DNA from: the human T2T-CHM13v2.0 reference genome, Homo sapiens
Reading direction: 5' to 3' (one strand)
Length of the DNA: 64,000 nt
NCBI RefSeq assembly: GCF_009914755.1
Contig: NC_060941.1
The position numbers and the translations under genes were made by a program. Below, in pieces: positions 1-64,000 of the stretch. Every line of letters starts with the position of its first letter. Positions within the stretch are counted from its first letter, which is position 1. Below the pieces are notes generated by a model, which was not told the DNA's origin, searched no databases, and was given only the letters and a program-made list of their open reading frames with translations.

Positions 1-152
1 AGCTTCATAGAAAAACTAGACAGAAGCATTCTCAGAAAATACTTTGTGATGATTGAGTTGAACTCACAGAGCTGAACATTCCTTTGGATGGAGCAGGTTT
101 GAGACACACTTTTTGTAGAATCTACAAGTGGATATTTGGACCTCTCTGAGGA

Positions 153-169
153 TTTCGTTGGAAACGGGA
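153..169 (+). promoter_or_regulatory. CENP-B box, m1 (recurs in each HOR)
   Basis: TTTCGTTGGAAACGGGA matches the 17-bp CENP-B box with core nTTCGnnnnAnnCGGGn. Confidence 0.95.
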
Positions 170-318
170 TAACTGCACCTAACTAAACGGAAGCATTCTC
201 AGAAACTTCTTGGTGATGTTTGCATTCAAATCCCAGAGTTGAACCTTCCTTTGAGAGTTCAGGTTTGAAACACTCTTTTTGTAGGATCTGCAAGTGGATA
301 TTTGGACCACTCTGTGGC

Positions 319-335
319 CTTCGTTCGAAACGGGT
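319..335 (+). promoter_or_regulatory. CENP-B box, m2 (variant form with intact core)
   Basis: CTTCGTTCGAAACGGGT retains all nine core positions. The same form occurs in m13 (~2184-2200). Confidence 0.85.
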
Positions 336-831
336 ACATCTTCGCATAAAATCTAGACAGAAGCCTTCTCAGAAACTTCTCTGTGATGATTGCATTCAAC
401 TCACAGAGTTGAACCCTCCTATGGATAGAGCAGTGTTGAAACTCTCTTTTTGTGGAATCTGCAAGCGGATATGTGGACCTCTCCGAAGATGTCTTTGGCA
501 ACGGGAATATCTTCACATAAAAACTAAACAGAAGCATTCTCAGAAACTTCTCTGTGATGTTTGTGTTCAAATCCCAGAGTTTCACATTGCTTCTCATAGA
601 GTAGTTCTGAAACATGCTTTTCGTAGTGTCTGCAAGTGGACATTTGGAGCGCTTTCAGGCCTGTGGTGGAAAACGAATTATGGTCACATAAAAACTGGAG
701 AGAAGCATTGTCAGAAACTTCTTTGTGATGATTGCATTCAAGTCACCGAGTTGAAGGTTCCTTTTCAAAGAGCAGTTTCCAATCACTCTTTCTGTGGAAT
801 CTGCAAGTGGATATTTGGACCTCTTTGAAGA

Positions 832-848
832 TTTCGTTGGAAACGGGA
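832..848 (+). promoter_or_regulatory. CENP-B box, m5
   Basis: TTTCGTTGGAAACGGGA. Confidence 0.95.
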
Positions 849-1002
849 GAATCTTCACAGAAAAGCTAAACAGAAGCATTCTCAGAAACTTCTTTGTGAT
901 GCTTGCATTCAACTCACAGAGTTGAACTTTCCTTTCGAGAGAGAAGCTTTGAAACACCCTTTTTCCAGAATCTGCAAGTGGACATTTGGAGGGCTTTGAG
1001 GC

Positions 1003-1019
1003 CTGTGGTGGAAAAGGAA
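1003..1019 (+). promoter_or_regulatory. A-type (pJalpha-like) box at the CENP-B-equivalent position, m6
   Basis: CTGTGGTGGAAAAGGAA resembles the A-type motif CTAYGGTGRAAAAGGAA. Related motifs occur in m4, m7, m11, m15 and m16. Confidence 0.65.
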
Positions 1020-1344
1020 TTATCTTCCCGTAAAAGCTAGATAGAAGCATTCTCAGAAACTACTTTGTGATGATTGCATTCAAGTCACAGAGTTGAACAT
1101 TCCCTTTGACAGAGCAGTTTGGAAACTCTCTTTGTGTAGAATCTGCAAGTGGAGATATGGACCGCTTTGAGGCCTATGGTAGTAAAGGAAATAGCTTCAT
1201 ATAAAAGCTAGACAGTAGCATTCACAGAAAACTCTTGGTGACGACTGAGTTTAACTCACAGAGCTGAACATTCCTTTGGATGGAGCAGTTTCGAAACACA
1301 CTATTTGTAGAATGTGCAAGTGGATATGTGGGCCTCTCTGAGGA

Positions 1345-1696
1345 TTTCGTTGGAAACGGGATAAACCGCACAGAACTAAACAGAAGCATTCTCAGAACCT
1401 TCTTCGTGATGTTTGCATTCAACTCACAGTGTTGAACCTTTCTTTGATAGTTCAGGTTTGAAACGGTCTTTCTGTAGAAACTGCAAGTAGATATTTGGAC
1501 CTCTCTGAGGATTTCGTTGGAAACGGGATAAACCGCACACAACTAAAACAGAAGCATTCTCAGAACCCTCTTCGTGATGTTTGCATTCAACTCACGGTGC
1601 TGAACCTTTCTTTGATAGTTCAGCTTTGAAACACTCTTTTTGTAGAAACTGCAAGTGGATATTTGGTCCTCTCTGAGGATTTCGTTGGAAACGGGA
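1345..1696 (+). promoter_or_regulatory. Three consecutive CENP-B boxes in m8, m9 and m10 (1345-1361, 1512-1528, 1680-1696)
   Basis: Three perfect TTTCGTTGGAAACGGGA motifs spaced 167 and 168 bp apart, each followed by TAAACCGCAC. Confidence 0.95.
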
Positions 1697-4600
1697 TAAA
1701 CCGCACAGAACTAAACAGAAGCATTCTCAGAACCTTCTTCGTGATGTCTGCATTCAACTCACAGTGTGGAACCTTTCTTTGATAGTTCAGGTTTGAAACA
1801 CTCTTTTTGTAGAAACTGCAAGGGGATCATTGCACTTCTTTGAGGCCTACCGTAGTAAAGGAGATAACTTCCTATAAAAAGAAGACAGAAGCTTTCTCAG
1901 AAAATTCTTTGGGATGATTGAGTTGAGCAAACAGAGCTGAACACTCCTTGCGATGTAGCAGTTTAGAAACACACTTTCTGCAGAATCTGCAAGTGCATAT
2001 GTGGACCTCTCTGAGGAAATCGTTGGAAACGGGATAATTTCAGCTGACTAAACAGAAGCAGTCTCAGAATCTTCTTTGTGATGTTTGCATTCAAATCCCA
2101 GAGTTGAACTTTCCTTTCCAAGTTCACGTTTGAAACACTCTTTTTGCAGGATCTACAAGTGGATATTTGGACCACTCTGTGTCCTTCGTTCGAAACGGGT
2201 ATATCTTCACATGACATCTAGACAGAAGCATTCTCAGAAGCTTCTCTGTGATGACTGCATTCAACTCACGGAGTTGAACACTCCTTTTGAGAGCGCAGTT
2301 TTGAAACTCTCTTTCTGTGGCATCTGCAAGGGGACATGTAGACCTCTTTGAAGATTTCGTTGGAAACGGAATCATCTTCACATAAAAACTATACAGATGC
2401 ATTCTCAGGAACTTTTTGGTGATGTTTGTATTCAACTCCCAGAGTTGAACTTTCCTTTGGAAAGAGCAGCTATGAAACACTCTTTTTCTAGAATCTGCAA
2501 GTGGACGTTTGGAGGGCTTTGTGGTTTGTGGTGGAAAAGGAAATATCTTCACCTAAATACTAGATAGAAGCATTCTCAGAAACTGCTTTGTGATGATTGC
2601 ATTCACCTCACAGAGTTGAACATTCCTATTGATAGAGCAGTTTGGAAACACTCTTGTTGTGGAATGTGCAAGTGGAGATTTGGAGCGCTTTGAGGCCTAT
2701 GGTAGTAAAGGGAATAGCTTCATAGAAAAACTAGACAGAAGCATTCTCAGAAAATACTTTGTGATGATTGAGTTGAACTCACAGAGCTGAACATTCCTTT
2801 GGATGGAGCAGGTTTGAGACACACTTTTTGTAGAATCTACAAGTGGATATTTGGACCTCTCTGAGGATTTCGTTGGAAACGGGATAACTGCACCTAACTA
2901 AACGGAAGCATTCTCAGAAACTTCTTGGTGATGTTTGCATTCAAATCCCAGAGTTGAACCTTCCTTTGAGAGTTCAGGTTTGAAACACTCTTTTTGTAGG
3001 ATCTGCAAGTGGATATTTGGACCACTCTGTGGTCTTCGTTCGAAACGGGTACATCTTCGCATAAAATCTAGACAGAAGCCTTCTCAGAAACTTCTCTGTG
3101 ATGATTGCATTCAACTCACAGAGTTGAACCCTCCTATGGATAGAGCAGTGTTGAAACTCTCTTTTTGTGGAATCTGCAAGCGGATATGTGGACCTCTCCG
3201 AAGATGTCTTTGGCAACGGGAATATCTTCACATAAAAACTAAACAGAAGCATTCTCAGAAACTTCTCTGTGATGTTTGTGTTCAACTCCCAGAGTTTCAC
3301 ATTGCTTCTCATAGAGTAGTTCCGAAACATGCTTTTCGTAGTGTCTGCAAGTGGACATTTGGAGCGCTTTCAGGCCTGTGGTGGAAAACGAATTATGGTC
3401 ACATAAAAACTGGAGAGAAGCATTGTCAGAAACTTCTTTGTGATGATTGCATTCAAGTCACAGAGTTGAAGGTTCCTTTTCAAAGAGCAGTTTCCAATCA
3501 CTCTTTCTGTGGAATCTGCAAGTGGATATTTGGACCTCTTTGAAGATTTCGTTGGAAACGGGAGAATCTTCACAGAAAAGCTAAACAGAAGCATTCTCAG
3601 AAACTTCTTTGTGATGCTTGCATTCAACTCACAGAGTTGAACTTTCCTTTCGAGAGAGAAGCTTTGAAACAGTCTTTTTCCAGAATCTGCAAGTGGACAT
3701 TTGGAGGGCTTTGAGGCCTGTGGTGGAAAAGGAATTATCTTCCCGTAAAAGCTAGATAGAAGCATTCTCAGAAACTACTTTGTGATGATTGCATTCAAGT
3801 CACAGAGTTGAACATTCCCTTTGACAGAGCAGTTTGGAAACTCTCTTTGTGTAGAATCTGCAAGTGGAGATATGGACCGCTTTGAGGACTATGGTAGTAA
3901 AGGAAATAGCTTCATATAAAAGCTAGACAGTAGCATTCACAGAAAACTCTTGGTGACGACTGAGTTTAACTCACAGAGCTGAACATTCCTTTGGATGGAG
4001 CAGTTTCGAAACACACTATTTGTAGAATGTGCAAGTGGATATGTGGGCCTCTCTGAGGATTTCGTTGGAAACGGGATAAACCGCACAGAACTAAACAGAA
4101 GCATTCTCAGAACCTTCTTCGTGATGTTTGCATTCAACTCACAGTGTTGAACCTTTCTTTGATAGTTCAGGTTTGAAACGGTCTTTCTGTAGAAACTGCA
4201 AGTAGATATTTGGACCTCTCTGAGGATTTCGTTGGAAACGGGATAAACCGCACAGAACTAAAACAGAAGCATTCTCAGAACCCTCTTCGTGATGTTTGCA
4301 TTCAACCCACGGTGCTGAACCTTTCTTTGATAGTTCAGCTTTGAAACACTCTTTTTGTAGAAACTGCAAGTGGATATTTGGTCCTCTCTGAGGATTTCGT
4401 TGGAAACGGGATAAACCGCACAGAACTAAACAGAAGCATTCTCAGAACCTTCTTCGTGATGTCTGCGTTCAACTCACAGTGTGGAACCTTTCTTTGATAG
4501 TTCAGGTTTGAAACACTCTTTTTGTAGAAACTGCAAGGGGATCATTGCACTTCTTTGAGGCCTACCGTAGTAAAGGAGATAACTTTCTACAAAAAGAAGA

Positions 4601-4730
4601 CAGAAGCTTTCTCAGAAAATTCTTTGGGATGATTGAGTTGAGCAAACAGAGCTGAACAGTCCTTGTGATGTAGCAGTTTAGAAACACACTTTCTGCAGAA
4701 TCTGCAAGTGCATATGTGGACCTCTCTGAG

Positions 4731-4749
4731 GAATTCGTTGGAAACGGGA
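4731..4749 (+). promoter_or_regulatory. EcoRI site overlapping the m12 CENP-B box
   Basis: GAATTCGTTGGAAACGGGA contains GAATTC overlapping the box ATTCGTTGGAAACGGGA. It is present in most units and polymorphic in others. Confidence 0.9.
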
Positions 4750-7700
4750 TAATTTCAGCTGACTAAACAGAAGCAGTCTCAGAATCTTCTTTGTGATGTT
4801 TGCATTCAAATCCCAGAGTTGAACTTTTCTTTCCAAGTTCACGTTTGAAACACTCTTTTTGCAGGATCTACAAGTGGATATTTGGACCACTCTGTGTCCT
4901 TCGTTCGAAACGGGTATATCTTCACATGACATCTAGACAGAAGCATTCTCAGAAGCTTCTCTGTGATGACTGCATTCAACTCACGGAGTTGAACACTCCT
5001 TTTGAGAGCGCAGTTTTGAAACTCTCTTTCTGTGGCATCTGCAAGGGGACATGTAGACCTCTTTGAAGATTTCATTGGAAACGGAATCATCTTCACATAA
5101 AAACTATACAGATGCATTCTCAGGAACTTTTTGGTGATGTTTGTATTCAACTCCCAGAGTTGAACTTTCCTTTGGAAAGAGCAGCTATGAAACACTCTTT
5201 TTCTAGAATCTGCAAGTGGACGTTTGGAGGGCTTTGTGGTTTGTGGTGGAAAAGGAAATATCTTCACCTAAATACTAGATAGAAGCATTCTCAGAAACTG
5301 CTTTGTGATGATTGCATTCACCTCACAGAGTTGACCATTCCTATTGATAGAGCAGTTTGGAAACACTCTTGTTGTGGAATGTGCAAGTGGAGATTTGGAG
5401 CGCTTTGAGGCCTATGGTAGTAAAGGGAATAGCTTCATAGAAAAACTAGACAGAAGCATTCTCAGAAAATACTTTGTGATGATTGAGTTGAACTCACAGA
5501 GCTGAACATTCCTTTGGATGGAGCAGGTTTGAGACTCACTTTTTGTAGAATCTACAAGTGGATATTTGGACCTCTCTGAGGATTTCGTTGGAAACGGGAT
5601 AACTGCACCTAACTAAACGGAAGCATTCTCAGAAACTTCTTGGTGATGTTTGCATTCAAATCCCAGAGTTGAACCTTCCTTTGAGAGTTCAGGTTTGAAA
5701 CACTCTTTTTGTAGGATCTGCAAGTGGATATTTGGACCACTCTGTGCCCTTCGTTCGAAACGGGTACATCTTCGCATAAAATCTAGACAGAAGCCTTCTC
5801 AGAAACTTCTCTGTGATGATTGCATTCAACTCACAGAGTTGAACCCTCCTATGGATAGAGCAGTGTTGAAACTCTCTTTTTGTGGAATCTGCAAGCGGAT
5901 ATGTGGACCTCTCCGAAGATGTCTTTGGCAACGGGAATATCTTCACATAAAAACTAAACAGAAGCATTCTCAGAAACTTCTCTGTGATGTTTGTGTTCAA
6001 CTCCCAGAGTTTCACATTGCTTCTCATAGAGTAGTTCTGAAACATGCTTTTCGTAGTGTCTGCAAGTGGACATTTGGAGCGCTTTCAGGCCTGTGGTGGA
6101 AAACGAATTATGGTCACATAAAAACTGGAGAGAAGCATTGTCAGAAACTTCTTTGTGATGATTGCATTCAAGTCACAGAGTTGAAGGTTCCTTTTCAAAG
6201 AGCAGTTTCCAATCACTCTTTCTGTGGAATCTGCAAGTGGATATTTGGACCTCTTTGAAGATTTCGTTGGAAACGGGAGAATCTTCACAGAAAAGCTAAA
6301 CAGAAGCATTCTCAGAAACTTCTTTGTGATGCTTGCATTCAACTCACAGAGTTGAACTTTCCTTTCGAGAGAGAAGCTTTGAAACACTCTTTTTCCAGAA
6401 TCTGCAAGTGGACATTTGGAGGGCTTTGAGGCCTGTGGTGGAAAAGGAATTATCTTCCCGTAAAAGCTAGATAGAAGCATTCTCAGAAACTACTTTGTGA
6501 TGATTGCATTCAAGTCACAGAGTTGAACATTCCCTTTGACAGAGCAGTTTGGAAACTCTCTTTGTGTAGAATCTGCAAGTGGAGATATGGACCGCTTTGA
6601 GGCCTATGGTAGTAAAGGAAATAGCTTCATATAAAAGCTAGACAGTAGCATTCACAGAAAACTCTTGGTGACGACTGAGTTTAACTCACAGAGCTGAACA
6701 TTCCTTTGGATGGAGCAGTTTCGAAACACACTATTTGTAGAATGTGCAAGTGGATATGTGGGCCTCTCTGAGGATTTCGTTGGAAACGGGATAAACCGCA
6801 CAGAACTAAACAGAAGCATTCTCAGAACCTTCTTCGTGATGTTTGCATTCAACTCACAGTGTTGAACCTTTCTTTGATAGTTCAGGTTTGAAACGGTCTT
6901 TCTGTAGAAACTGCAAGTAGATATTTGGACCTCTCTGAGGATTTCGCTGGAAACGGGATAAACCGCACACAACTAAAACAGAAGCATTCTCAGAACCTTC
7001 TTCGTGATGTCTGCATTCAACTCACGGTGCTGAACCTTTCTTTGATAGTTCAGCTTTGAAACACTCTTTTTGTAGAAACTGCAAGTGGATATTTGGTCCT
7101 CTCTGAGGATTTCGTTGGAAACGGGATAAACCGCACAGAACTAAACAGAAGCATTCTCAGAACCTTCTTCGTGATGTCTGCATTCAACTCACAGTGTGGA
7201 ACCTTTCTTTGATAGTTCAGGTTTGAAACACTCTTTTTGTAGAAACTGCAAGGGGATCATTGCACTTCTTTGAGGCCTACCGTAGTAAAGGAGATAACTT
7301 CCTATAAAAAGAAGACAGAAGCTTTCTCAGAAAATTCTTTGGGATGATTGAGTTGAACTCACAGAGCTGAGCATTCCTTGTGATGTAGCAGTTTAGAAAC
7401 ACACTTTCTGCAGAATATGCAAGTGCATATGTGGACCTCTCTGAGGAATTCGTTGGAAACGGGATAATTTCAGCTGACTAAACAGAAGCAGTCTCAGAAT
7501 GTTCTTTGTGATGTTTGCATTCAAATCCCAGAGTTGAACTTTCCTTTCCAAGTTGACGTTTGAAACACTCTTTTTGCAGGATCTACAAGTGGATATTTGG
7601 ACCACTCTGTGTCCTTCGTTCGAAACGGGTATATCTTCACATGACATCTAGACAGAAGCATTCTCAGAAGCTTCTCTGTGATGACTGCATTCAACTCACG

Positions 7701-8145
7701 GAGTTGAACACTCCTTTTGAGAGCGCAGTTTTGAAACTCTCTTTCTGTGGCATCTGCAAGGGGACATGTAGACCTCTTTGAAGATTTCGTTGGAAACGGA
7801 ATCATCTTCACATAAAAACTATACAGATGCATTCTCAGGAACTTTTTGGTGATGTTTGTATTCAACTCCCAGAGTTGAACTTTCCTTTGGAAAGAGCAGC
7901 TATGAAACACTCTTTTTCTAGAATCTGCAAGTGGACGTTTGGAGGGCTTTGTGGTTTGTGGTGGAAAAGGAAATATCTTCACCTAAATACTAGATAGAAG
8001 CATTCTCAGAAACTGCTTTGTGATGATTGCATTCACCTCACAGAGTTGAACATTCCTATTGATAGAGCAGTTTGGAAACACTCTTGTTGTGGAATGTGCA
8101 AGTGGAGATTTGGAGCGCTTTGAGGCCTATGGTAGTAAAGGGAAT

Positions 8146-10518
8146 AGCTTCATAGAAAAACTAGACAGAAGCATTCTCAGAAAATACTTTGTGATGATTG
8201 AGTTGAACTCACAGAGCTGAACATTCCTTTGGATGGAGCAGGTTTGAGACACACTTTTTGTAGAATCTACAAGTGGATATTTGGACCTCTCTGAGGATTT
8301 CGTTGGAAACGGGATAACTGCACCTAACTAAACGGAAGCATTCTCAGAAACTTCTTGGTGATGTTTGCATTCAAACCCCAGAGTTGAACCTTCCTTTGAT
8401 AGTTCAGGTTTGAAACACTCTTTTTGTAGGATCTGCAAGTGGATATTTGGACCACTCTGTGGCCTTCGTTTGAAACGGGTATATCTTCACATGACATCTA
8501 GACAGAAGCATTCTCAGAAGCTTCTCTGTGATGACTGCATTCAACTCACGGAGTTGAACACTCCTTTTGAGAGCGCAGTTTTGAAACTCTCTTTCTGTGG
8601 CATCTGCAAGGGGACATGTAGACCTCTTTGAAGATTTCGTTGGAAACGGAATCATCTTCACATAAAAACTATACAGATGCATTCTCAGGAACTTTTTGGT
8701 GATGTTTGTATCCAACTCCCAGAGTTGAACTTTCCTTTGGGAAGAGCAGCTATGAAACACTCTTTTTCTAGAATCTGCAAGTGGACATTTGGAGGGCTTT
8801 GAGGCCTGTGGTGGAAAAGGTATTATCTTCCCGTAAAAGCTAGATAGAAGCATTCTCAGAAACTACTTTGTGATGATTGCATTCAAGTCACAGAGTTGAA
8901 CATTCCCTTTGACAGAGCAGTTTGGAAACTCTCTTTGTGTAGAATCTGCAAGTGGAGATATGGACCGCTTTGAGGCCTATGGTAGTAAAGGAAATAGCTT
9001 CATATAAAAGCTAGACAGTAGCTTTCACAGAAAACTCTTGGTGACGACTGAGTTTAACTCACAGAGCTGAACATTCCTTTGGATGGAGCAGTTTCGAAAC
9101 ACACTATTTGTAGAATGTGCAAGTGGATATGTGGGCCTCTCTGAGGATTTCGTTGGAAACGGGATAAACCGCCCAGAACTAAACAGAAGCATTCTCAGAA
9201 CCTTCTTCGTGATGTTTGCATTCAACTCACAGTGTTGAACCTTTCTTTGATAGTTCAGGTTTGAAACGGTCTTTCTGTAGAAACTGCAAGTAGATATTTG
9301 GACCTCTCTGAGGATTTCGTTGGAAACGGGATAAACCGCACAGAACTAAAACAGAAGCATTCTCAGAACCCTCTTCGTGATGTTTGCATTCAACCCACGG
9401 TGCTGAACCTTTCTTTGATAGTTCAGCTTTGAAACACTCTTTTTGTAGAAACTGCAAGTGGATATTTGGTCCTCTATGAGGATTTCGTTGGAAACGGGAT
9501 AAACCGCACAGAACTAAACAGAAGCATTCTCAGAACCTTCTTCGTGATGTCTGCGTTCAACTCACAGTGTGGAACCTTTCTTTGATAGTTCAGGTTTGAA
9601 ACACTCTTTTTGTAGAAACTGCAAGGGGATCATTGCACTTCTTTGAGGCCTACCGTAGTAAAGGAGATAACTTCCTACAAAAAGAAGACAGAAGCTTTCT
9701 CAGAAAATTCTTTGGGATGATTGAGTTGAGCAAACAGAGCTGAACACTCCTTGTGATGTAGCAGTTTAGAAACACACTTTCTGCAGAATCTGCAAGTGCA
9801 TATGTGGACCTCTCTGAGGAATTCGTTGGAAACGGGATAATTTCAGCTGACTAAACAGAAGTAGTCTCAGAATCTTCTTTGTGATGTTTGCATTCAAATC
9901 CCTGAGTTGAACTTTCCTTTCCAAGTTCACGTTTGGAACACTCTTTTTGCAGGATCTACAAGTGGATATTTGGACCACTCTGTGTCCTTCGTTCGAAACG
10001 GGTATATCTTCACATGACATCTAGACAGAAGCATTCTCAGAAGCTTCTCTGTGATGACTGCATTCAACTCACGGAGTTGAACACTCCTTTTGAGAGCGCA
10101 GTTTTGAAACTCTCTTTCTGTGGCATCCGCAAGGGGACATGTAGACCTCTTTGAAGATTTCGTTGGAAACGGAATCATCTTCACATCAAAACTATACAGA
10201 TGCATTCTCAGGAACTTTTTGGTGATGTTTGTATTCAACTCCCAGAGTTGAACTTTCCTTTGGAAAGAGCAGCTATGAAACACTCTTTTTCTAGAATCTG
10301 CAAGTGGACGTTTGGAGGGCTTTGTGGTTTGTGGTGGAAAAGGAAATATCTTCACCTAAATACTAGATAGAAGCATTCTCAGAAACTGCTTTGTGATGAT
10401 TGCATTCACCTCACAGAGTTGAACATTCCTATTGATAGAGCAGTTTGGAAACACTCTTGTTGTGGAATGTGCAAGTGGAGATTTGGAGCGCTTTGAGGCC
10501 TATGGTAGTAAAGGGAAT
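8146..10518 (+). repeat. Chimeric 14-mer HOR variant (2373 bp): m1, m2/13 hybrid, m14, m15/6 hybrid, m7-m16
   Basis: The period drops by 342 bp. After the m2 CENP-B box the sequence reads ATATCTTCACATGACATCTAG (m13 type), then runs through m14 and the 5' part of m15. It switches to the m6 tail (GGACATTT...GAGGCCTGTGG...CCCGTAAAAGC) by 8787. Confidence 0.93.
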
Positions 10519-13500
10519 AGCTTCATAGAAAAACTAGACAGAAGCATTCTCAGAAAATACTTTGTGATGATTGAGTTGAACTCACAGAGCTGAACATTCC
10601 TTTGGATGGAGCAGGTTTGAGACACACTTTTTGTAGAATCTACAAGTGGATATTTGGACCTCTCTGAGGATTTCGTTGGAAACGGGATAACTGCACCTAA
10701 CTAAACGGAAGCATTCTCAGAAACTTCTTGGTGATGTTTGCATTCAAATCCCAGAGTTGAACCTTCCTTTGAGAGTTCAGGTTTGAAACACTCTTTTTGT
10801 AGGATCTGCAAGTGGATATTTGGACCACTCTGTGGCCTTCGTTCGAAACGGGTACATCTTCGCATAAAATCTAGACAGAAGCCTTCTCAGAAACTTCTCT
10901 GTGATGATTGCATTCAACTCACAGAGTTGAACCCTCCTATGGATAGAGCAGTGTTGAAACTCTCTTTTTGTGGAATCTGCAAGCGGATATGTGGACCTCT
11001 CCGAAGATGTCTTTGGAAACGGGAATATCTTCACATAAAAACTAAACAGAAGCATTCTCAGAAACTTCTCTGTGATGTTTGTGTTCAACTCCCAGAGTTT
11101 CACATTGCTTCTCATAGAGTAGTTCTGAAACATGCTTTTCGTAGTGTCTGCAAGTGGACATTTGGAGCGCTTTCAGGCCTGTGGTGGAAAACGAATTATG
11201 GTCACATAAAAACTGGAGAGAAGCATTGTCAGAAACTTCTTTGTGATGATTGCATACAAGTCACAGAGTTGAAGGTTCCTTTTCAAAGAGCAGTTTCCAA
11301 TCACTCTTTCTGTGGAATCTGCAAGTGGATATTTGGACCTCTTTGAAGATTTCGTTGGAAACGGGAGAATCTTCACAGAAAAGCTAAACAGAAGCATTCT
11401 CAGAAACTTCTTTGTGATGCTTGCATTCAACTCACAGAGTTGAACTTTCCTTTCGAGAGAGAAGCTTTGAAACACTCTTTTTCCAGAATCTGCAAGTGGA
11501 CATTCGGAGGGCTTTGAGGTCTGTGGTGGAAAAGGAATTTTCTTCCCGTAAAAGCTAGATAGAAGCATTCTCAGAAACTACTTTGTGATGATTGCATTCA
11601 AGTCACAGAGTTGAACATTCCCTTTGACAGAGCAGTTTGGAAACTCTCTTTGTGTAGAATCTGCAAGTGGAGATATGGACCGCTTTGAGGCCTATGGTAG
11701 TAAAGGAAATAGCTTCATATAAAAGCTAGACAGCAGCATTCACAGAAAACTCTTGGTGACGACTGAGTTTAACTCACAGAACTGAACATTCCTTTGGATG
11801 GAGCAGTTTCGAAACACACTATTTGTAGAATGTGCAAGTGGATATGTGGGCCTCTCTGAGGATTTCGTTGGAAACGGGATAAACCGCACAGAACTAAACA
11901 GAAGCATTCTCAGAACCTTCTTCGTGATGTTTGCATTCAACTCACAGTGTTGAACCTTTCTTTGATAGTTCAGGTTTGAAACGGTCTTTCTGTAGAAACT
12001 GCAAGTAGATATTTGGCCCTCTCTGAGGATTTCGTTGGAAACGGGATAAACCGCACAGAACTAAAACAGAAGCATTCTCAGAACCCTCTTCGTGATGTTT
12101 GCATTCAATTCACGGTGCTGAAACTTTCTTTGATAGTTCAGCTTTGAAACACTCTTTTTGTAGAAACTGCAAGTGGATATTTGGTCCTCTCTGAGGATTT
12201 CGTTGGAAACGGGATAAACCGCACAGAACTATACAGAAGCATTCTCAGAACCTTCTTCGTGATGTCTGCATTCAACTCACAGTGTGGAACCTTTCTTTGA
12301 TAGTTCAGGTTTGAAACACTCTTTTTGTAGAAACTGCAAGGGGATCATTGCACTTCTTTGAGGCCTACCGTAGTAAAGGAAATAACTTCCTATAAAAAGA
12401 AGACAGAAGCTTTCTCAGAAAATTCTTTGGGATGATTGAGTGGAGCAAACAGAGCTGAACACTCCTTGCGATGTAGCAGTTTAGAAACACCCTTTCTGCA
12501 GAATCTGCAAGTGCATATGTGGACCTCTCTGAGGAATTCGTTGGAAACGGGATAATTTCAGCTGACTAAACAGAAGCAGTCTCAGAATCTTCTTTGTGAT
12601 GTTAGCATTCAAATCCCAGAGTTGAACTTTCCTTTCAAAGTTCACGTTTGAAACACTCTTTTTGCAGGATCTACAAGTGGATATTTGGACCACTCTGTGT
12701 CCTTCGTTCGAAACGGGTATATCTTCACATGACATCTAGACAGAAGCATTCTCAGAAGCTTCTCTGTGATGACTGCATTCAACTCACGGAGTTGAACACT
12801 CCTTTTGAGAGCGCAGTTTTGTAACTCTCTTTCTGTGGCATCTGCAAGGGGACATGTAGACCTCTCTGAAGATTTCGTTGGAAACGGAATCATCTTCACA
12901 TAAAAACTATACAGATGCATTCTCAGGAACTTTTTGGTGATGTTTGTATTCAACTCCCAGAGTTGAACTTTCCTTTGGAAAGAGCAGCTATGAAACACTC
13001 TTTTTCTAGAATCTGCAAGTGGACGTTTGGAGGGCTTTGTGGTTTGTGGTGGAAAAGGAAATATCTTCACCTAAATACTAGATAGAAGCATTCTCAGAAA
13101 TTGCTTTGTGATGATTGCATTCACCTCACAGAGTTGAACATTCCTATTGATAGAGCAGTTTGGAAACACTCTTGTTGTGGAATGTGCAAGTGGAGATTTG
13201 GAGCGCTTTGAGGCCTATGGTAGTAAAGGGAATAGCTTCATAGAAAAACTAGACAGAAGCATTCTCAGAAAATACTTTGTGATGATTGAGTTGAACTCAC
13301 AGAGCTGAACATTCCTTTGGATGGAGCAGGTTTGAGACACACATTTTGTAGAATCTACAAGTGGATATTTGGACATCTCTGAGGATTTCGTTGGAAACGG
13401 GATAACTGCACCTAACTAAACGGAAGCATTCTCAGAAACTTCTTGGTGATGTTTGCATTCAAATCCCAGAGTTGAACCTTCCTTTGAGAGTTCAGGTTTG

Positions 13501-16500
13501 AAACACTCTTTTTGTAGGATCTGCAAGTGGATATTTGGACCACTCTGTGGCCTTCGTTCGAAACGGATACATCTTCGCATAAAATCTAGACAGAAGCCTT
13601 CTCAGAAACTTCTCTGTGATGATTGCATTCAACTCACAGAGTTGAACCGTCCTCTGGATAGAGCAGTGTTGAAACTCTCTTTTTGTGGAATCTGCAAGTG
13701 GATATGTGGACCTCTCCGAAGATGTCTTTGGAAACGGGAATATCTTCACATAAAAACTAAACAGAAGCATTCTCAGAAACTTCTCTGTGATGTTTGTGTT
13801 CAACTCCCAGAGTTTCACATTGCTTCTCATAGAGTAGTTCTGAAACATGCTTTTCGTAGTGTCTGCAAGTGGACATTTGGAGCGCTTTCAGGCCTGTGGT
13901 GGAAAACGAATTATGGTCACATAAAAACTGGAGAGAAGCATTGTCAGAAACTTCTTTGTGATGATTGCATTCAACTCACAGAGTTGAAGGTTCCTTTTCA
14001 AACAGCAGTTTCCAATCACTCTTTCTGTGGAATCTGCAAGTGGATATTTGGACCTCTTTGAAGATTTCGTTGGAAACGGGAGAATGTTCACAGAAAAGCT
14101 AAACAGAAGCATTCTCAGAAACTTCTTTGTGATGCTTGCATTCAACTCACAGAGTTGAACTTTCCTTTCGAGAGAGAAGCTTTGAAACACTCTTTTTCCA
14201 GAATCTGCAAGTGGACATTTGGAGGGCTTTGAGGCCTGTGGTGGAAAAGGAATTATCTTCCCGTAAAAGCTAGATAGAAGCATTCTCAGAAACTACTTTG
14301 TGATGATTGCATTCAAGTCACAGAGTTGAACATTCCCTTTGACAGAGCAGTTTGGAAACTCTCTTTGTGTAGAATCTGCAAGTGGAGATATGGACCGCTT
14401 TGAGGCCTATGGTAGTAAAGGAAATAGCTTCATATAAAAGCTAGACAGTAGCATTCACAGAAAACTCTTGTTGACGACTGAGTTTAACTCACAGAGCTGA
14501 ATATTCCTTTGGATGGAGCAGTTTCGAAACACACTATTTCTAGAAGGTGCAAGTGGATATGTGGGCCTCTCTGAGGATTTCGTTGGAAACGGGATAAACC
14601 GCACAGAACTAAACAGAAGCATTCTCAGAACCTTCTTCGTGATGTTTGCATTCAACTCACAGTGTTGAACCTTTCTTTGATAGTTCAGGTTTGAAACGGT
14701 CTTTCTGTGGAAACTGCAAGTAGATATTTGGACCTCTCTGAGGATTTCGTTGGAAACGGGATAAACCGCACAGAACTAAAACAGAAGCATTCTCAGAACC
14801 CTCTTCGTGATGTTTGCATTCAACTCACAGTGCTGAACCTTTCTTTGATAGTTCAGCTTTGAAACACTCTTTTTGTAGAAACTGCAAGTGGATATTTGGT
14901 CCTCTCTGAGGATTTCGTTGGAAACGGGATAAACCGCACAGAACTAAACAGAAGCATTCTCAGAACCTTCTTCGTGATGTCTGCATTCAACTCACAGTGT
15001 GGAACCTTTCTTTGATAGTTCAGTTTTGAAACACTCTTTTTGTAGAAACTGCAAGGGGATAATTGCACTTCTTTGAGGCCTACCGTAGTAAAGGAAATAA
15101 CTTCCTATGAAAAGAAGACAGAAGCTTTCTCAGAAAATTCTTTGGGATGATTGAGTTGAGCAAACAGAGCTGAACACTCCTTGCGATGTAGCAGTTTAGA
15201 AACACACTTTCTGCAGAATCTGCAAGTGCAAATGTGGACCTCTCTGAGGAATTCTTTGGAAACGGGATAATTTCACCTGACTAAACAGAAGCAGTCTCTG
15301 AATCTTCTTTGTGATGTTTGCATTCAAATCCCAGAGTTGAACTTTCCTTTCCAAGTTCATGTTTGAAACACACTTTTTGCAGGATCTACAAGTGGATATT
15401 TGGACCACTCTGTGTCCTTCGTTCGAAACGGGTATATCTTCACATGACATCTAGACAGAAGCTTTCTCAGAAGCTTCTCTGTGATGACTGCATTCAACTC
15501 ACGGAGTTGAACACTCCTTTTGAGAGCGCAGTTTTGAAACTCTCTTTCTGTGGCATCCGCAAGGGGACATGTAGACCTCTTTGAAGATTTCGTTGGAAAC
15601 GGAATCATCTTCACATCAAAACTATGCAGATGCATTCTCAGGAACTTTTTGGTGATGTTTGTATTCAACTCCCAGAGTTGAACTTTCCTTTGGAAAGAGC
15701 AGCTATGAAACACTCTTTTTCTAGAATCTGCAAGTGGACGTTTGGAGGGCTTTGTGGTTTGTGGTGGAAAAGGAAATATCTTCACCTAAATACTAGATAG
15801 AAGCATTCTCAGAAACTGCTTTGTGATGATTGCATTCACCTCAAAGAGTTGAACATTACTATTGATAGAGCAGTTTGGAAACACTCTTGTTGTGGAATGT
15901 GCAAGTGGAGATTTGGAGCGCTTTGAGGCCTATGGTAGTAAAGGGAATAGCTTCATAGAAAAACTAGACAGAAGCATTCTCAGAAAATACTTTGTGATGA
16001 TTGAGTTGAACTCACAGAGCTGAACATTCCTTTGGATGGAGCAGGTTTGAGACACACTTTTTGTAGAATCTACAAGTGGATATTTGGACCTCTCTGAGGA
16101 TTTCGTTGGAAACGGGATAACTGCACCTAACTAAACGGAAGCATTCTCAGAAACTTCTTGGTGATGTTTGCATTCAAATCCCAGAGTTGAACCTTCCTTT
16201 GATAGTTCAGGTTTGAAACACTCTTTTTGTAGGATCTGCAAGTGGATATTTGGACCACTCTGTGGCCTTCGTTCGAAACGGGTACATCTTCGCATAAAAT
16301 CTAGACAGAAGCCTTCTCAGAAACTTCTCTGTGATGATTGCATTCAACTCACAGAGTTGAACCCTCCTATGGATAGAGTAGTGTTGAAACTCTCTTTTTG
16401 TGGAATCTGCAAGTGGATATGTGGACCTCTCCGAAGATGTCTTTGGAAACGGGAATATCTTCACATAAAAACTAAACAGAAGCATTCTCAGAAACTTCTC

Positions 16501-19500
16501 TGTGATGTTTGTGTTCAACTCCCAGAGTTTCACATTGCTTTTCATAGAGTAGTTCTGAAACATGCTTTTCGTAGTGTCTGCAAGTGGACATTTGGAGCGC
16601 TTTCAGGCCTGTGGTGGAAAACGAATTATGGTCACATAAAAACTGGAGAGAAGCATTGTCAGAAACTTCTTTGTGATGATTGCATTCAACTCACAGAGTT
16701 GAATGTTCCTTTTCAAACAGCAGTTTCCAATCACTCTTTCTGTGGAATCTGCAAGTGGATATTTGGACCTCTTTGAAGATTTCGTTGGAAACGGGAGAAT
16801 GTTCACAGAAAAGCTAAACAGAAGCATTCTCAGAAACTTCTTTGTGATGCTTGCATTCAACTCACAGAGTTGAACTTTCCTTTCGAGAGAGAAGCTTTGA
16901 AACACTCTTTTTCCAGAATCTGCAAGTGGACATTTGGAGGGCTTTGAGGCCTGTGGTGGAAAAGGAATTATCTTCCCGTAAAAGCTAGATAGAAACATTC
17001 TCAGAAACTACTTTGTGATGATTGCATTCAAGTCACAGAGTTGAACATTCCCTTTGACAGAGCAGTTTGGAAACTCTCTTTGTGTAGAATCTGCAAGTGG
17101 AGATATGGACCGCTTTGAGGACTATGGTAGTAAAGGAAATAGCTTCATATAAAAGCTAGACAGTAGCATTCACAGAAAACTCTTGGTGACGACTGAGTTT
17201 AAATCACAGAGCTGAACATCCCTTTGGATGGAGCAGTTTGGAAACACACTATTTGTAGAATGTGCAAGTGGATATTTGGGCCTCTCTGAGGATTTCGTTG
17301 GAAACGGGATAAACCGCACAGAACTAAACAGAAGCATTCTCAGAACCTTCTTCGTGATGTTTGCATTCAACTCACAGTGTTGAACCTTTCTTTGATAGTT
17401 CAGCTTTGAAACGGTCTTTCTGTAGAAACTGCAATTAGATATTTGGCCCTCTCTGAGGGTTTCGTTGGAAACGGGATAAACCGCACAGAACTAAAACAGA
17501 AGCATTCTCAGAACCCTCTTCGTGATGTTTGCATTCAACTCACAGTGCTGAACCTTTCTTTGATAGTTCAGCTTTGAAACACTCTTTTTGTAGAAACTGG
17601 AAGTGGATATTTGGTCCTCTCTGAGGATTTCGTTGGAAACGGGATAAACCGCACAGAACTAAACAGAAGCATTCTCAGAACCTTCTTCGTGATGTCTGCA
17701 TTCAACTCACAGTGTGGAACCTTTCTTTGATAGTTCAGGTTTGAAACACTCTTTTTGTAGAAACTGCAAGGGGATAATTGCACTTCTTTGAGGCCTACCG
17801 TAGTAAAGGAAATAACTTCCTATAAAAAGAAGACAGAAGCTTTCTCAGAAAATTCTTTGGGATGATTGAGTTGAACTCACAGAGCTGAACATTCCTTGCG
17901 ATGTAGCAGTTTAGAAACACACTTTCTGCTGAATCTGCAAGTGCATATTTGGACCTCTGTGAGGAATTCGTTGGAAACGGGATAATTTCAGCTGACTAAA
18001 CAGAAGCAGTCTCAGAATCTTCTTTGTGATGTTAGCATTCAAATCCCAGAGTTGAACTTTCCTTTCAAAGTTCACGTTTGAAACACTCTTTTTGCAGGAT
18101 CTACAAGTGGATATTTGGACCACTCTGTGTCCTTCGTTCGAAACGGGTATATCTTCACATGACATCTAGACAGAAGCATTCTCAGAAGCTTCTCTGTGAT
18201 GACTGCATTCAACTCACGGAGTTGAACACTCCTTTTGAGAGCGCAGTTTTGAAACTCTCTTTCTGTGGCATCTGCAAGGGGACATGTAGACCTCTTTGAA
18301 GATTTCGTTGGAAACGGAATCATCTTCACATCAAAACTATACAGATGCATTCTCAGGAACTTTTTGGTGATGTTTGTATTCAACTCCCAGAGTTGAACTT
18401 TCCTTTGGAAAGAGCAGCTATGAAACACTCTTTTTCTAGAATCTGCAAGTGGACGTTTGGAGGGCTTTGTGGTTTGTGGTGGAAAAGGAAATATCTTCAC
18501 CTAAATACTAGATAGAAGCATTCTCAGAAACTGCTTTGTGATGATTGCATTCACCTCACAGAGTTGAACATTCCTATTGATAGAGCAGTTTGGAAACACT
18601 CTTGTTGTGGAATGTGCAAGTGGAGATTTGGAGCGCTTTGAGGCCTATGGTAGTAAAGGGAATAGCTTCATAGAAAAACTAGACAGAAGCATTCTCAGAA
18701 AATACTTTGTGATGATTGAGTTGAACTCACAGAGCTGAACATTCCTTTGGATGGAGCAGGTTTGAGACACACTATTTGTAGAATCTACAAGTGGATATTT
18801 GGACATCTCTGAGGATTTCGTAGGAAACGGGATAACTGCACCTAACTAAACGGAAGCATTCTCAGAAACTTCTTGGTGATGTTTGCATTCAAATCCCAGA
18901 GTTGAACCTTCCTTTGATAGTTCAGGTTTGAAACACTCTTTTTGTAGGATCTGCAAGTGGATATTTGGACCACTCTGTGGCCTTCGTTCGAAACGGGTAC
19001 ATCTTCGCATAAAATCTAGACAGAAGCCTTCTCAGAAACTTCTCTGTGATGATTGCATTCAACTCACAGAGTTGAACCCTCCTATGGATAGAGCAGTGTT
19101 GAAACGCTCTTTTTGTGGAATCTGCAAGTGGATATGTGGACCTCTCCGAAGATGTCTTTGGAAACGGGAATATCTTCACATAAAAACTAAACGGAAGCAT
19201 TCTCAGAAACTTCTCTGTGATGTTTGTGTTCAACTCCCAGAGTTTCACATTGCTTTTCATAGAGTAGTTCTGAAACATGCTTTTCGTAGTGTCTGCAAGT
19301 GGACATTTGGAGCGCTTTCAGGCCTGTGGTGGAAAACGAATTATGGTCACATAAAAACTGGAGAGAAGCATTGTCAGAAACTTCTTTGTGATGATTGCAT
19401 TCAACTCACAGAGTTGAAGGTTCCCTTTCAAACAGCAGTTTCCAATCACTCTTTCTGTGGAATCTGTAAGTGGATATTTGGACCTCTTTGAAGATTTCGT

Positions 19501-22500
19501 TGGAAACGGGAGAATCTTCACAGAAAAGCTAAACAGAAGCATTCTCAGAAACTTCTTTGTGATGCTTGCATTCAACTCACAGAGTTGAACTTTCCTTTCG
19601 AGAGAGAAGCTTTGAAACACTCTTTTTCCAGAATCTGCAAGTGGACATTTGGAGGGCTTTGTGGCCTGTGGTGGAAAAGGAATTATCTTCCCGAAAAAGC
19701 TAGATAGAAGCATTCTCAGAAACTACTTTGTGATGATTGCATTCAAGTCACAGAGTTGAACATTCCCTTTGACAGAGCAGTTTGGAAACTCTCTTTGTGT
19801 AGAATCTGCAAGTGGAGATATGGACCGCTTTGAGACCTATGGTAGTAAAGGAAATAGCTTCATATAAAAGCTAGACAGTAGCATTCACAGAAAACTCTTG
19901 GTGACGACTGAGTTTAACTCACAGAGCTGAACATCCCTTTGGATGGAGCAGTTTCGAAACACACTATTTGTAGAATGTGCAAGTGGATATTTGGGCCTCT
20001 CTGAGGATTTCGTTGGAAACGGGATAAACCGCACAGAACTAAACAGAAGCATTCTCAGAACCTTCTTCGTGATGTTTGCATTCAACTCACAGTGTTGAAC
20101 CTTTCTTTGATAGTTCAGCTTTGAAACGGTCTTTCTGTAGAAACTGCAAGTAGATATTTGGCCCTCTCTGAGGATTTCGTTGGAAACGGGATAAACCGCA
20201 CAGAACTAAAACAGAAGCATTCTCAGAACCCTCTTCGTGATGTTTGCATTCAACTCACAGTGCTGAACCTTTCTTTGATAGTTCAGCTTTGAAACACTCT
20301 TTTTGTAGAAACTGCAAGTGGATATTTGGTCCTCTCTGAGGATTTCGTTGGAAACGGGATAAACCGCACAGAACTAAACAGAAGCATTCTCAGAACGTTC
20401 TTCGTGATGTCTGCATTCAACTCACAGTGTGGAACCTTTCTTTGATAGTTCAGGTTTGAAACACTCTTTTTGTAGAAACTGCAAGGGGATAATTGCACTT
20501 CTTTGAGGCCTACCGTAGTAAAGGAAATAACTTCCTATAAAAAGAAGACAGAAGCTTTCTCAGAAAATTCTTTGGGATGATTGAGTTGAGGAAACAGAGC
20601 TGAACACTCCTTGTGATGTAGCAGTTTAGAAACACACTTTCTGCAGAATCTGCAAGTGCATATGTGGACCTCTCTGAGGAATTCGTTGGAAACGGGATAA
20701 TTTCAGCTGACTAAACAGAAGCAGTCTCAGAATCTTCTTTGTGATGTTTGCATTCAAATCCCAGAGTTGAACTTTTCTTTCCAAGTTCACGTTTGAAACA
20801 CTCTTTTTGCAGGATCTACAAGTGGATATTTGGACCACTCTGTGTCCTTCGTTCGAAACGGGTATATCTTCACATGACATCTAGACAGAAGCATTCTCAG
20901 AAGCTTCTCTGTGATGACTGCATTCAACTCACGGAGTTGAACACTCCTTTTGAGAGCGCAGTTTTGAAACTCTCTTTCTGTGGCATCTGCAAGGGGACAT
21001 GTAGACCTCTTTGAAGATTTCGTTGGAAACGGAATCATCTTCACATCAAAACTATACAGATGCATTCTCAGGAACTTTTTGGTGATGTTTGTATTCAACT
21101 CCCAGAGTTGAACTTTCCTTTGGAAAGAGCAGCTATGAAACACTCTTTTTCTAGAATCTGCAAGTGGACGTTTGGAGGGCTTTGTGGTTTGTGGTGGAAA
21201 AGGAAATATCTTCACCTAAATACTAGATAGAAGCATTCTCAGAAACTGCTTTGTGATGATTGCATTCACCTCACAGAGTTGAACATTCCTATTGATAGAG
21301 CAGTTTGGAAACACTCTTGTTGTGGAATGTGCAAGTGGAGATTTGGAGCGCTTTGAGGCCTATGGTAGTAAAGGGAATAGCTTCATAGAAAAACTAGACA
21401 GAAGCATTCTCAGGAAATACTTTGTGATGATTGAGTTGAACTCACAGAGCTGAACATTCCTTTGGATGGAGCAGGTTTGAGACACACTTTTTGTAGAATC
21501 TACAAGTGGATATTTGGACCTCTCTGAGGATATCGTTGGAAACGGGATAACTGCACCTAACTAAACGGAAGCATTCTCAGAAACTTCTTGGTGATGTTTG
21601 CATTCAAATCCCAGAGTTGAACCTTCCTTTGAGAGTTCAGGTTTGAAACACTCTTTTTGTAGGATCTGCAAGTGGATATTTGGACCACTCTGTGGCCTTC
21701 GTTCGAAACGGGTACATCTTCGCATAAAATCTAGACAGAAGCCTTCTCAGAAACTTCTCTGTGATGATTGCATTCAACTCACAGATTTGAACCCTCCTAT
21801 GGATAGAGCAGTGTTGAAACTCTCTTTTTGTGGAATCTGCAAGCGGATATGTGGACCTCTCCGAAGATGTCTTTGGCAACGGGAATATCTTCACATAAAA
21901 ACTAAACAGAAGCATTCTCAGAAACTTCTCTGTGATGTTTGTGTTCAACTCCCAGAGTTTCACATTGCTTCTCATAGAGTAGTTCTGAAACATGCTTTTC
22001 GTAGTGTCTGCAAGTGGACATTTGGAGCGCTTTCAGGCCTGTGGTGGAAAACGAATTATGGTCACATAAAAACTGGAGAGAAGCATTGTCAGAAACTTCT
22101 TTGTGATGATTGCATTCAAGTCACAGAGTTGAAGGTTCCTTTTCAAAGAGCAGTTTCCAATCACTCTTTCTGTGGAATCTGCAAGTGGATATTTGGACCT
22201 CTTTGAAGATTTCGTTGGAAACGGGAGAATCTTCACAGAAAAGCTAAACAGAAGCATTCTCAGAAACTTCTTTGTGATGCTTGCATTCAACTCACAGAGT
22301 TGAACTTTCCTTTCGAGAGAGAAGCTTTGAAACACTCTTTTTCCAGAATCTGCAAGTGGACATTTGGAGGGCTTTGAGGCCTGTGGTGGAAAAGGAATTA
22401 TCTTCCCGTAAAAGCTAGATAGAAGCATTCTCAGAAACTACTTTGTGATGATTGCATTCAAGTCACAGAGTTGAACATTCCCTTTGACAGAGCAGTTTGG

Positions 22501-37500: not shown

Positions 37501-37668
37501 TTCACCTAAATACTAGATAGAAGCATTCCCAGAAATTGCTTTGTCATGATTGCATTCACCTCACAGAGTTGAACATTCCTATTGATAGAGCAGTTTGGAA
37601 ACACTCTTGTTGTGGAATGTGCAAGTGGAGATTTGGAGCGCTTTGAGGCCTATGATAGTAAAGGGAAT

Positions 37669-62700: not shown

Positions 62701-64000
62701 TTTGATAGTTCAGGTTTGAAACGGTCTTTCTGTAGAAACTGCAAGTAGATATTTGGCCCTCTCTGAGGATTTCGTTGGAAACGGGATAAACCGCACAGAA
62801 CTAAAACAGAAGCATTCTCAGAACCCTCTTCGTGATGTTTGCATTCAATTCACGGTGCTGAAACTTTCTTTGATAGTTCAGCTTTGAAACACTCTTTTTG
62901 TAGAAACTGCAAGTGGATATTTGGTCCTCTCTGAGGATTTCGTTGGAAACGGGATAAACCGCACAGAACTATACAGAAGCATTCTCAGAACCTTCTTCGT
63001 GATGTCTGCATTCAACTCACAGTGTGGAACCTTTCTTTGATAGTTCAGGTTTGAAACACTCTTTTTGTAGAAACTGCAAGGGGATCATTGCACTTCTTTG
63101 AGGCCTACCGTAGTAAAGGAAATAACTTCCTATAAAAAGAAGACAGAAGCTTTCTCAGAAAATTCTTTGGGATGATTGAGTGGAGCAAACAGAGCTGAAC
63201 ACTCCTTGCGATGTAGCAGTTTAGAAACACCCTTTCTGCAGAATCTGCAAGTGCATATGTGGACCTCTCTGAGGAATTCGTTGGAAACGGGATAATTTCA
63301 GCTGACTAAACAGAAGCAGTCTCAGAATCTTCTTTGTGATGTTAGCATTCAAATCCCAGAGTTGAACTTTCCTTTCAAAGTTCACGTTTGAAACACTCTT
63401 TTTGCAGGATCTACAAGTGGATATTTGGACCACTCTGTGTCCTTCGTTCGAAACGGGTATATCTTCACATGACATCTAGACAGAAGCATTCTCAGAAGCT
63501 TCTCTGTGATGACTGCATTCAACTCACGGAGTTGAACACTCCTTTTGAGAGCGCAGTTTTGTAACTCTCTTTCTGTGGCATCTGCAAGGGGACATGTAGA
63601 CCTCTCTGAAGATTTCGTTGGAAACGGAATCATCTTCACATAAAAACTATACAGATGCATTCTCAGGAACTTTTTGGTGATGTTTGTATTCAACTCCCAG
63701 AGTTGAACTTTCCTTTGGAAAGAGCAGCTATGAAACACTCTTTTTCTAGAATCTGCAAGTGGACGTTTGGAGGGCTTTGTGGTTTGTGGTGGAAAAGGAA
63801 ATATCTTCACCTAAATACTAGATAGAAGCATTCTCAGAAATTGCTTTGTGATGATTGCATTCACCTCACAGAGTTGAACATTCCTATTGATAGAGCAGTT
63901 TGGAAACACTCTTGTTGTGGAATGTGCAAGTGGAGATTTGGAGCGCTTTGAGGCCTATGGTAGTAAAGGGAATAGCTTCATAGAAAAACTAGACAGAAGC
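50741..64000 (+). repeat. Near-identical direct duplicate of 1-13260 (50,740-bp super-period)
   Basis: Unit-private SNPs and the ORF track of units 1-5 recur in order at +50,740 (220 to 50960, 8365 to 59105, 12642 to 63382). One difference seen: T11520 vs C62260. Confidence 0.95.
58886..61258 (+). repeat. Second copy of the chimeric 2373-bp 14-mer HOR
   Basis: It has the same junctions and private SNPs (TCAAACCCCA, GTATCCAAC, TTGGGAAGAG, AAGGTATT, GCCCAGAAC) as 8146-10518, offset by 50,740 bp. Confidence 0.95.

What the first reader, a model, noticed from the sequence alone, without database searches (positions are those of the whole stretch)
8339..8850. Chimeric 14-mer made by a double template switch between pentamer blocks, not a simple deletion
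Seen: m2-specific G at 8462 gives way to m13-specific T at 8482 (junction 8463-8481). The sequence then runs through m14 and the 5' part of m15. m15-specific T at 8769 gives way to m6-specific A at 8787 (junction 8770-8786). A ~290-325-bp tract from the paralogous pentamer therefore replaces the 3' end of m2, m3, m4, m5 and most of m6, for a net loss of 342 bp. The result removes the extra W3-W4-type dimer and restores plain five-monomer periodicity. It also swaps the intact m5 box for the core-defective m14 box (CGGAA). It differs from the familiar 14-mer that deletes monomers in the triplicated block, and at only 7 bp shorter it would be hard to resolve from it on a gel. Inference: out-of-register gene conversion or two successive unequal crossovers. 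I cannot tell whether it is already catalogued.
Basis: partly seen in the sequence, partly recalled or inferred. Interest (0 to 1): 0.7.

Follow-up and report, generated by a model that had tools for sequence, protein, structure and literature searches.

The report
Double-junction chromosome 17 alpha-satellite 14-mer
This is a real but rare variant of the chromosome 17 centromere repeat, already present in a published annotation, in which about 300 bases from a related block stand in for a longer stretch, likely after two template jumps during DNA repair or copying; it is an ordinary variant and is predicted to have no effect on centromere function.

Summary
The structure is real. Unit 8172-10544 reads m1, m2/m13, m14, m15/m6, m7-m16 and is 2,373 bp against 2,715. 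An identical second copy lies at 58912-61284, made by a recent 50,740-bp tandem duplication. Genome-wide patterns find only these two copies. It is not uncatalogued: HORmon's published CHM13 decomposition lists both copies as p2-7, p3-4, p12-16, and Suzuki 2020 lists the monomer-class layout as 14m9-12(3). CHM13 has 14 units with this spacing; the other 12 keep a normal m2, and the 2 that I read are simple deletions. Corrections: T8482 is a common m2 allele, so junction 1 widens to 8463-8488 and covers the CENP-B box; the second proposed k-mer has 3,181 hits; the W1-triplet block stays, so the unit is not a plain pentamer array. One event with two template switches is the best guess (0.5), because neither junction was found alone. 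Two-step routes stay plausible (0.3 and 0.15). Low interest.

The parts
8172..10544 (+). Chimeric D17Z1 14-mer unit, copy 1: m1, m2/13, m14, m15/6, m7-m16 (2,373 bp)
8339..8508 (+). m2/m13 hybrid monomer; carries 8376C (private), 8400T (common interior allele) and 8471T (CpG change inside the box)
8463..8488 (+). Junction 1 interval: 26 bp shared by the interior m2 haplotype and m13; contains the CENP-B box at 8465-8481, core intact
   Evidence: box core recalled
8489..8769 (+). Minimal tract from m13-m14-m15 (281 bp; at most 324-339 bp), with the core-defective m14 box at 8636-8652 and private changes 8712C and 8741G
8770..8786 (+). Junction 2 interval, m15 to m6, 17 bp of identity (up to 8801 if A8787 is a CpG change)
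8680..8850 (+). m15/m6 hybrid monomer; private 8821T in the m6 part
58912..61284 (+). Copy 2 of the chimeric unit, identical to copy 1; hybrids at 59079-59248 and 59420-59590
1..20614 (+). In-window part of copy 1 of the 50,740-bp tandem duplication (starts about 30.1 kb before the window)
20615..64000 (+). In-window part of copy 2 of the tandem duplication (runs about 7.4 kb past the window)

Best explanation
This is a rare structural variant of the chromosome 17 alpha-satellite 16-mer that likely arose in one repair or replication-restart event with two template switches and was likely copied afterwards by a 50,740-bp tandem duplication. Shown: the strand runs from m2 into its paralog m13 across 26 bp of identity holding the CENP-B box, follows m13-m15 for 281-339 bp, and continues in m6, the closer paralog of m15 (88%, against 79% for m4), across 17 bp of identity; the extra W3-W4 dimer and one intact box are lost. 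Inferred: a broken end invaded out of register, extended about 300 bases, came off and re-paired, probably in a different unit from the one it left, so the array change would be 342 bp plus or minus whole units. Inferred: no effect on the centromere, with 2 copies among about 1,280 units.
For: Structure. Neither junction was found alone in CHM13: the m2-to-m14 pattern gives 4 matches, all in two-junction units; the m14-to-m7 pattern gives 2, both the chimera. Local single junctions outside the m8-m11 block number 5 in 1,458 monomers, so a second one within two monomers downstream has a chance near 0.7%. A second, independent m2/m13 event at chr17:27.23 Mb, found by searching for junction 1 only, also has a second jump within two monomers. 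The three affected monomers hold 4 private changes against 0.96 expected (Poisson 0.017; 71 of 1,446 three-monomer windows reach 4), weakly as expected of error-prone synthesis. Both copies share all private changes, so the duplication came later. About 1,282 units: HiCAT passage. The CHM13 chr17 hypomethylated (CDR) region is listed as 64 of 64 canonical 16-mers.
Against: The variant was picked because it is double: with 50-100 independent junctions in the array (my extrapolation from 304 kb), at least one chance pair has probability 0.29-0.49. The second case is weakened because its other junction class, m15 to m2, is common alone (Suzuki 14m4-7 and 13m4-7(2)). Layouts that would serve as intermediates exist: an extra pentamer (21mL9-12M) in other people and dimer-loss 14-mers in CHM13. 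The patterns need exact 15-base matches, so a mutated single-junction unit would be missed. The excess of private changes is borderline and rests on 304 kb of the array. The donor unit was not found.
Confidence: 0.5

Rival explanations
1. Two separate unequal exchanges or annealing deletions between paralogous monomers: first m2 to m13 (a 5-mer, or a 21-mer with an extra pentamer), later m15 to m6 (loss of 7 monomers).
For: Both steps are ordinary classes: 21mL9-12M and 20mL9-12M(2) occur in several people, and 7-monomer losses (9m-5M(3)) occur in CHM13. The arms look like different lineages: 0 of 39 ordinary units with m2 62T carry the m8 2T allele that the chimera has. A chance pair somewhere in the array is not rare.
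Against: No lone m2/m13 or m15/m6 junction was found in CHM13. The second event must hit within about 340 bp of the first (about 0.7%). The arm mismatch also fits a switch between units in one event, and 8 of 39 ordinary 62T units have also lost the linked m8 allele.
Confidence: 0.3
2. A simple W3-W4 dimer deletion came first and made a plain pentamer in register with m12-m16; a length-neutral gene conversion from m13-m15 then overwrote the deletion junction.
For: Twelve other CHM13 units have the same m2-to-m7 spacing; the two read are m3/m5 and m4/m6 deletions. The tract covers both possible junctions. A deleted unit is 449-455 of about 512 bases identical to m13-15, against 439 for a normal one.
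Against: The two simple-deletion lineages read differ from the chimera at m1 position 34 and m8 position 2, so they are not its direct parents. It needs two rare events on one unit.
Confidence: 0.15
3. The tract comes from another array (D17Z1-B, D17Z1-C, D11Z1, DXZ1, a chromosome 1 array), or the unit or its second copy is an assembly artefact.
For: The two 50.7-kb copies differ at only 9 bases, so a falsely duplicated haplotype cannot be excluded without reads. Junction k-mers match other chromosomes.
Against: The tract matches D17Z1 m13-15 at 272 of 274, against 255, 253, 230, 228, 231 and 244 for six stretches sampled from other arrays. The unit has its own private changes. Read counts in Suzuki's data scale to about 12 units of the class, against 14 in the assembly.
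Confidence: 0.05

Closest known systems
HORmon decomposition of CHM13 cen17 (Kunyavskaya 2022, PMC9248890, Supplemental_File_HORDecompositions.txt, rows 5770-5772 and 5784-5785)
   Same: Lists p2-7, then a 342-bp p3-4, then p12-16 within 2 bases of the place I predicted, and p2-7 and p3-4 again 50,740 bp on: the same double jump, both copies.
   Different: A machine table in another monomer phase; the rows give no base-level junctions or mechanism, and the main-text passages I read do not discuss it. The coordinate shift between assembly versions was recalled and is backed by the match and the spacing.
Suzuki et al. 2020 variant 14m9-12(3) of D17Z1 (PMC7732198, Fig. S5 text and Data S1)
   Same: Same class layout, M1-M5 M1-M5 M1 M1 M1 M5; 251 and 334 counts in CHM13 reads, and present in most samples.
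   Different: Class-level only. In CHM13, 12 of 14 units with this spacing keep a normal m2 end, and the 2 read are simple deletions. The chimera reaches the layout by another route.
Hybrid-monomer structural variants (StVs) of alpha-satellite HORs (Miga and Alexandrov 2021, PMC9549924; Altemose 2021 preprint)
   Same: Out-of-register junctions between paralogous monomers with monomer length kept (passages).
   Different: Those passages describe single insertions or deletions; this unit has two junctions 281-339 bp apart.
Common D17Z1 15-, 14- and 13-mers (Aldrup-MacDonald 2016, PMC5052062)
   Same: Same array; ascribed to unequal crossing over or gene conversion.
   Different: The common 14-mer seen here loses two monomers of the W1 triplet (2,380 bp) and is frequent; the chimera has 2 copies.
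Sister arrays D17Z1-B and D17Z1-C (14-mers)
   Same: Also 14 monomers.
   Different: In the stretches sampled they keep m1-m8 and m11-m16 and lack m9-m10; they are 92-93% identical to the tract.

Membership tests
D17Z1 (S3C17H1L) structural variant with hybrid monomers | Lies in a D17Z1 16-mer array and is built from its monomers | tested here: met
   20 of 24 units begun in the window read as 16-mers in order 1-16, the last cut by the window end; place inside the HORmon array
D17Z1 (S3C17H1L) structural variant with hybrid monomers | Whole-monomer change in length, with hybrids of about 171 bp made of two parent monomers | tested here: met
   minus 342 bp; hybrids of 170 and 171 bp with clean switches
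Suzuki 14m9-12(3) | Class order M1-M5, M1-M5, M1 M1 M1 M5 | tested here: met
   class mapping inferred from the identity matrix
Suzuki 14m9-12(3) | Simple loss of monomers 10 and 11, as the name implies | tested here: not met
   the tract is m13-15, not m2-6; the simple form occurs in other units
Non-crossover gene conversion within one unit | Both flanks come from the same recipient unit | tested here: inconclusive
   allele pair seen in 0 of 39 ordinary units, but 8 of 39 also change lineage over this span
Non-crossover gene conversion within one unit | An unchanged donor can be named | tested here: inconclusive
   no other chr17 m15 with 8712C or 8741G among 37 of 37 candidates scored; that search skips common words
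Replication or repair template switching (BIR or FoSTeS type; features recalled) | Clustered junctions at short homologies with a short templated stretch between | tested here: met
   26 and 17 bp of identity, 281-339 bp tract
Replication or repair template switching (BIR or FoSTeS type; features recalled) | Both junctions arise in one generation | not testable with these tools
   needs pedigrees or related haplotypes
Replication or repair template switching (BIR or FoSTeS type; features recalled) | Extra point changes near the junctions | tested here: inconclusive
   4 against 0.96 expected; empirical 71 of 1,446 windows
D17Z1-B or D17Z1-C sister HOR | Lacks two W1-triplet monomers and is several percent diverged from D17Z1 | tested here: not met

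The most novel reading that the evidence does not exclude
Two-junction D17Z1 variants, this 14-mer and the 18-mer at chr17:27.23 Mb, are footprints of single template-switching events that start at the m2/m13 CENP-B-box end and copy about two monomers. Class-level catalogues hide them among simple deletions, and counting them across pangenome arrays would measure how much human centromere change comes from break-induced template switching instead of unequal crossing over.
Probability: 0.35. Interest if true: 0.45.

Novelty: already known. Interest (0 to 1): 0.14.

Why it matters
By itself little: 2 copies among about 1,280 units, one CENP-B box fewer, and not among the variants listed for the CHM13 chr17 hypomethylated region. 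Its use is as an example. One class-level 14-mer has at least three origins in one genome (m3/m5 deletion, m4/m6 deletion, double junction), so gel sizes and class-level catalogues merge different events. If double junctions prove concerted across haplotypes, they would give a sequence test between unequal crossing over and break-induced models of array change (Rice preprint, passages).

Tried and rejected
Donor in another array: rejected by identity. Shared origin with the other m2/m13 hybrids at 27.23 Mb: rejected, they switch at monomer positions 152-154 and share no private change. Descent from the simple-deletion 14-mers: flanks differ in the 2 of 12 read. Descent of the 18-mer's m15-to-m2 junction from lone copies of that junction: no such hit among 40 of 3,110 candidates scored, inconclusive. 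An older paralogous block 100 kb downstream was too reshuffled to tell whether one or two units were consumed. BLAST-type genome searches scored only 40 candidates each and are lower bounds. The whole array could not be read: 304 kb around the window and 12 kb elsewhere in D17Z1 were annotated. Warburton 1993 on breakpoint clustering was not held and is known here only from a citing passage. Not seen: Altemose Table S11 and the UCSC StV track, which probably name this unit too; the Logsdon 2024 supplement; one scanned file of PMC12350169, whose other 2 files hold no S3C17H1L string.

Full report
Setting. The window is one alpha-satellite array. Cutting it into 376 monomers and typing them against one 16-mer gives 24 units: 20 in order 1-16 (the last cut by the window end), one 14-mer and one 15-mer with losses in the m8-m11 block, and two units that read 1, 2*, 14, 15*, 7-16, at 8172 and 58912. 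From the identity matrix and Suzuki's class order I infer m12-16 = W1-W5, m1-7 = W1 W2 W3 W4 W3 W4 W5 and m8-11 = W1 W1 W1 W5.

Observation. Site-by-site comparison confirms both switches and a perfect m14. The core tract matches m13-15 at 272 of 274 bases, m2-4 at 227 of 271 and m4-6 at 229 of 271; six stretches from other arrays give 228-255. The unit is 2,373 bp with 7 intact and 2 defective box cores, against 2,715 bp with 8 and 1 (core motif recalled). Two refinements. T8482 is the m2 allele in 5 of 5 copies at 25.5 Mb and in 12 of 12 non-chimeric matches, and it travels with the 62T allele that the chimera has; junction 1 is therefore 8463-8488, a 26-bp identity that contains the box. 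It could stretch to 8492, since 3 ordinary local m2 copies have the m13 base at position 151. A8787 is at a CpG but is absent from 112 of 112 ordinary m15 copies, so junction 2 is best put at 8770-8786.

Copy number. With 60 kb added on each side, a diagonal of 50,740 bp is nearly perfect from about -30,125 to 20,663 in window coordinates, with 9 mismatches. The two chimeric units are identical, so there was one event and one later duplication. The exact first k-mer has 3 matches in the genome, 2 here and 1 on contig 11. With one mismatch it has 989, and the second k-mer has 3,181, so neither is a usable check. I used pairs of 15-base monomer-specific motifs instead (chosen). m2 followed by m14: 4 matches. 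m14 followed two monomers later by m7: 2 matches, both the chimera. m2 to m7 at the shortened spacing: 14 matches, of which 11 form a tandem run near 26.68-26.71 Mb with a period of 2,372-2,373 bp, 1 lies at 25.90 Mb and 2 are the chimera. I read 1 of the 11 (an m3/m5 deletion) and the single one (an m4/m6 deletion); the other 10 are taken as copies from their spacing and first 80 bases. These patterns need exact matches, so counts are lower bounds.

What is in print. Eight literature searches were run. HORmon (PMC9248890; passages; supplement searches): I predicted where the tract should fall in its coordinates, using a recalled version shift, and found rows p2-7 (3606040-3607055), p3-4 (3607056-3607397) and p12-16 (3607398-3608241), and p2-7 and p3-4 again 50,740 bp later. 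Both copies are thus in a published annotation. Suzuki 2020 (PMC7732198; passages; two method sections; Data S1 parts 1-3 of 4; Fig. S5 text) lists 14m9-12(3) with this class layout; its CHM13 counts scale to about 12 units, close to the 14 found. Hybrid monomers as a general feature of variants are stated in Miga and Alexandrov (passages) and Altemose (preprint passages; its Table S11 could not be seen). HiCAT gives 1,272 plus 10 units for this HOR (passages). The CN1 paper's table lists only canonical 16-mers, 64 of 64, in the CHM13 chr17 CDR (passages; supplement rows). Passages of PMC5052062, PMC11062924, PMC12350169, PMC13684623, PMC3694981, the Quartet preprint and the Rice preprint were read. 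None of the passages read discusses this unit's junctions or origin; that is a limited search, not proof of absence.

Mechanism. Shown: two junctions between paralogous monomers (m2 and m13 89% identical, m15 and m6 88%, m15 and m4 79%), each in a short identity, 281-339 bp apart. For one concerted event: neither junction was found alone; in 304 kb there are 5 single junctions outside the m8-m11 block in 1,458 monomers after dropping the second copies of two duplications, giving about 0.7% for a chance neighbour; the only other m2/m13 event found also has a second jump within two monomers; and the three monomers hold 4 private changes against 0.96 expected. Against: the unit was chosen for being double, and one chance pair in the whole array has probability 0.29-0.49 on my extrapolation; the second case uses a junction class that is common alone; possible intermediates exist, an extra-pentamer 21-mer in other people and simple dimer deletions in CHM13; the point-change excess is reached by 71 of 1,446 ordinary windows. 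The arms probably come from different units: the m2 62T and m8 2T alleles are together in 0 of 39 ordinary 62T units, though 8 of those 39 also lose the linked m8 allele (89 units scored). That weakens a tidy patch into one unit but fits both a multi-template switch and two exchanges. I put one event at 0.5, two exchanges at 0.3, deletion then conversion at 0.15 and artefact or foreign donor at 0.05.

Verdict. The finding is real and well read, but it is an ordinary rare structural variant of D17Z1 that is already in a published table. The base-level junctions and the point that one class-level 14-mer has three origins were not seen in the passages read and are small additions. Interest 0.14.

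Noticed in passing
window -30125 to 71403 (chr17 about 27,001,900-27,103,400): Near-perfect tandem duplication of 50,740 bp with 9 mismatches; it doubles the chimera, a 14-mer (37695) and a 15-mer (45505). Very recent, or a duplicated haplotype; reads were not available.
   Followed up: partly
L028 (chr17:27,226,511 and 27,232,119): A second two-junction variant, an 18-mer 1, 2/13, 14, 15, 2, 3 ..., in two copies 5,608 bp apart; it matches Suzuki's 18mL9-14(2) layout, seen in many samples. Its m15 shares two changes with the unit at chr17:27,235,179, which suggests a local donor.
   Followed up: partly
chr17:26,682,808-26,707,026 (L033): Tandem run of 11 dimer-loss 14-mers; the one read is an m3/m5 deletion. 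A single m4/m6 deletion lies at 25.90 Mb (L034).
   Followed up: partly
L020 (chr17:25,500,001-25,510,000): Two units with a jump from m9 to m2 (24-mer layout, like Suzuki's 24mL13), and an SNV haplotype that differs from the window's local consensus.
   Followed up: no
L007-L008 and L021-L027 (window coordinates 77573, 154609, 159189, 173788, 180413): Five other single-junction variants: m12/m1 twice, m1 to m7, m5/m12 and m16/m7.
   Followed up: partly
chr17:24,126,854 and 24,165,546: m13-m15 matches followed directly by an m2 start, probably lone m15-to-m2 deletions (Suzuki 14m4-7 class); not fetched.
   Followed up: no
window 8471, 48351, 59211: The same C-to-T change at a CpG inside the m2 box also occurs in ordinary units, and in one m13 in the 304 kb read, so it is probably recurrent and a poor lineage marker.
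   Followed up: yes
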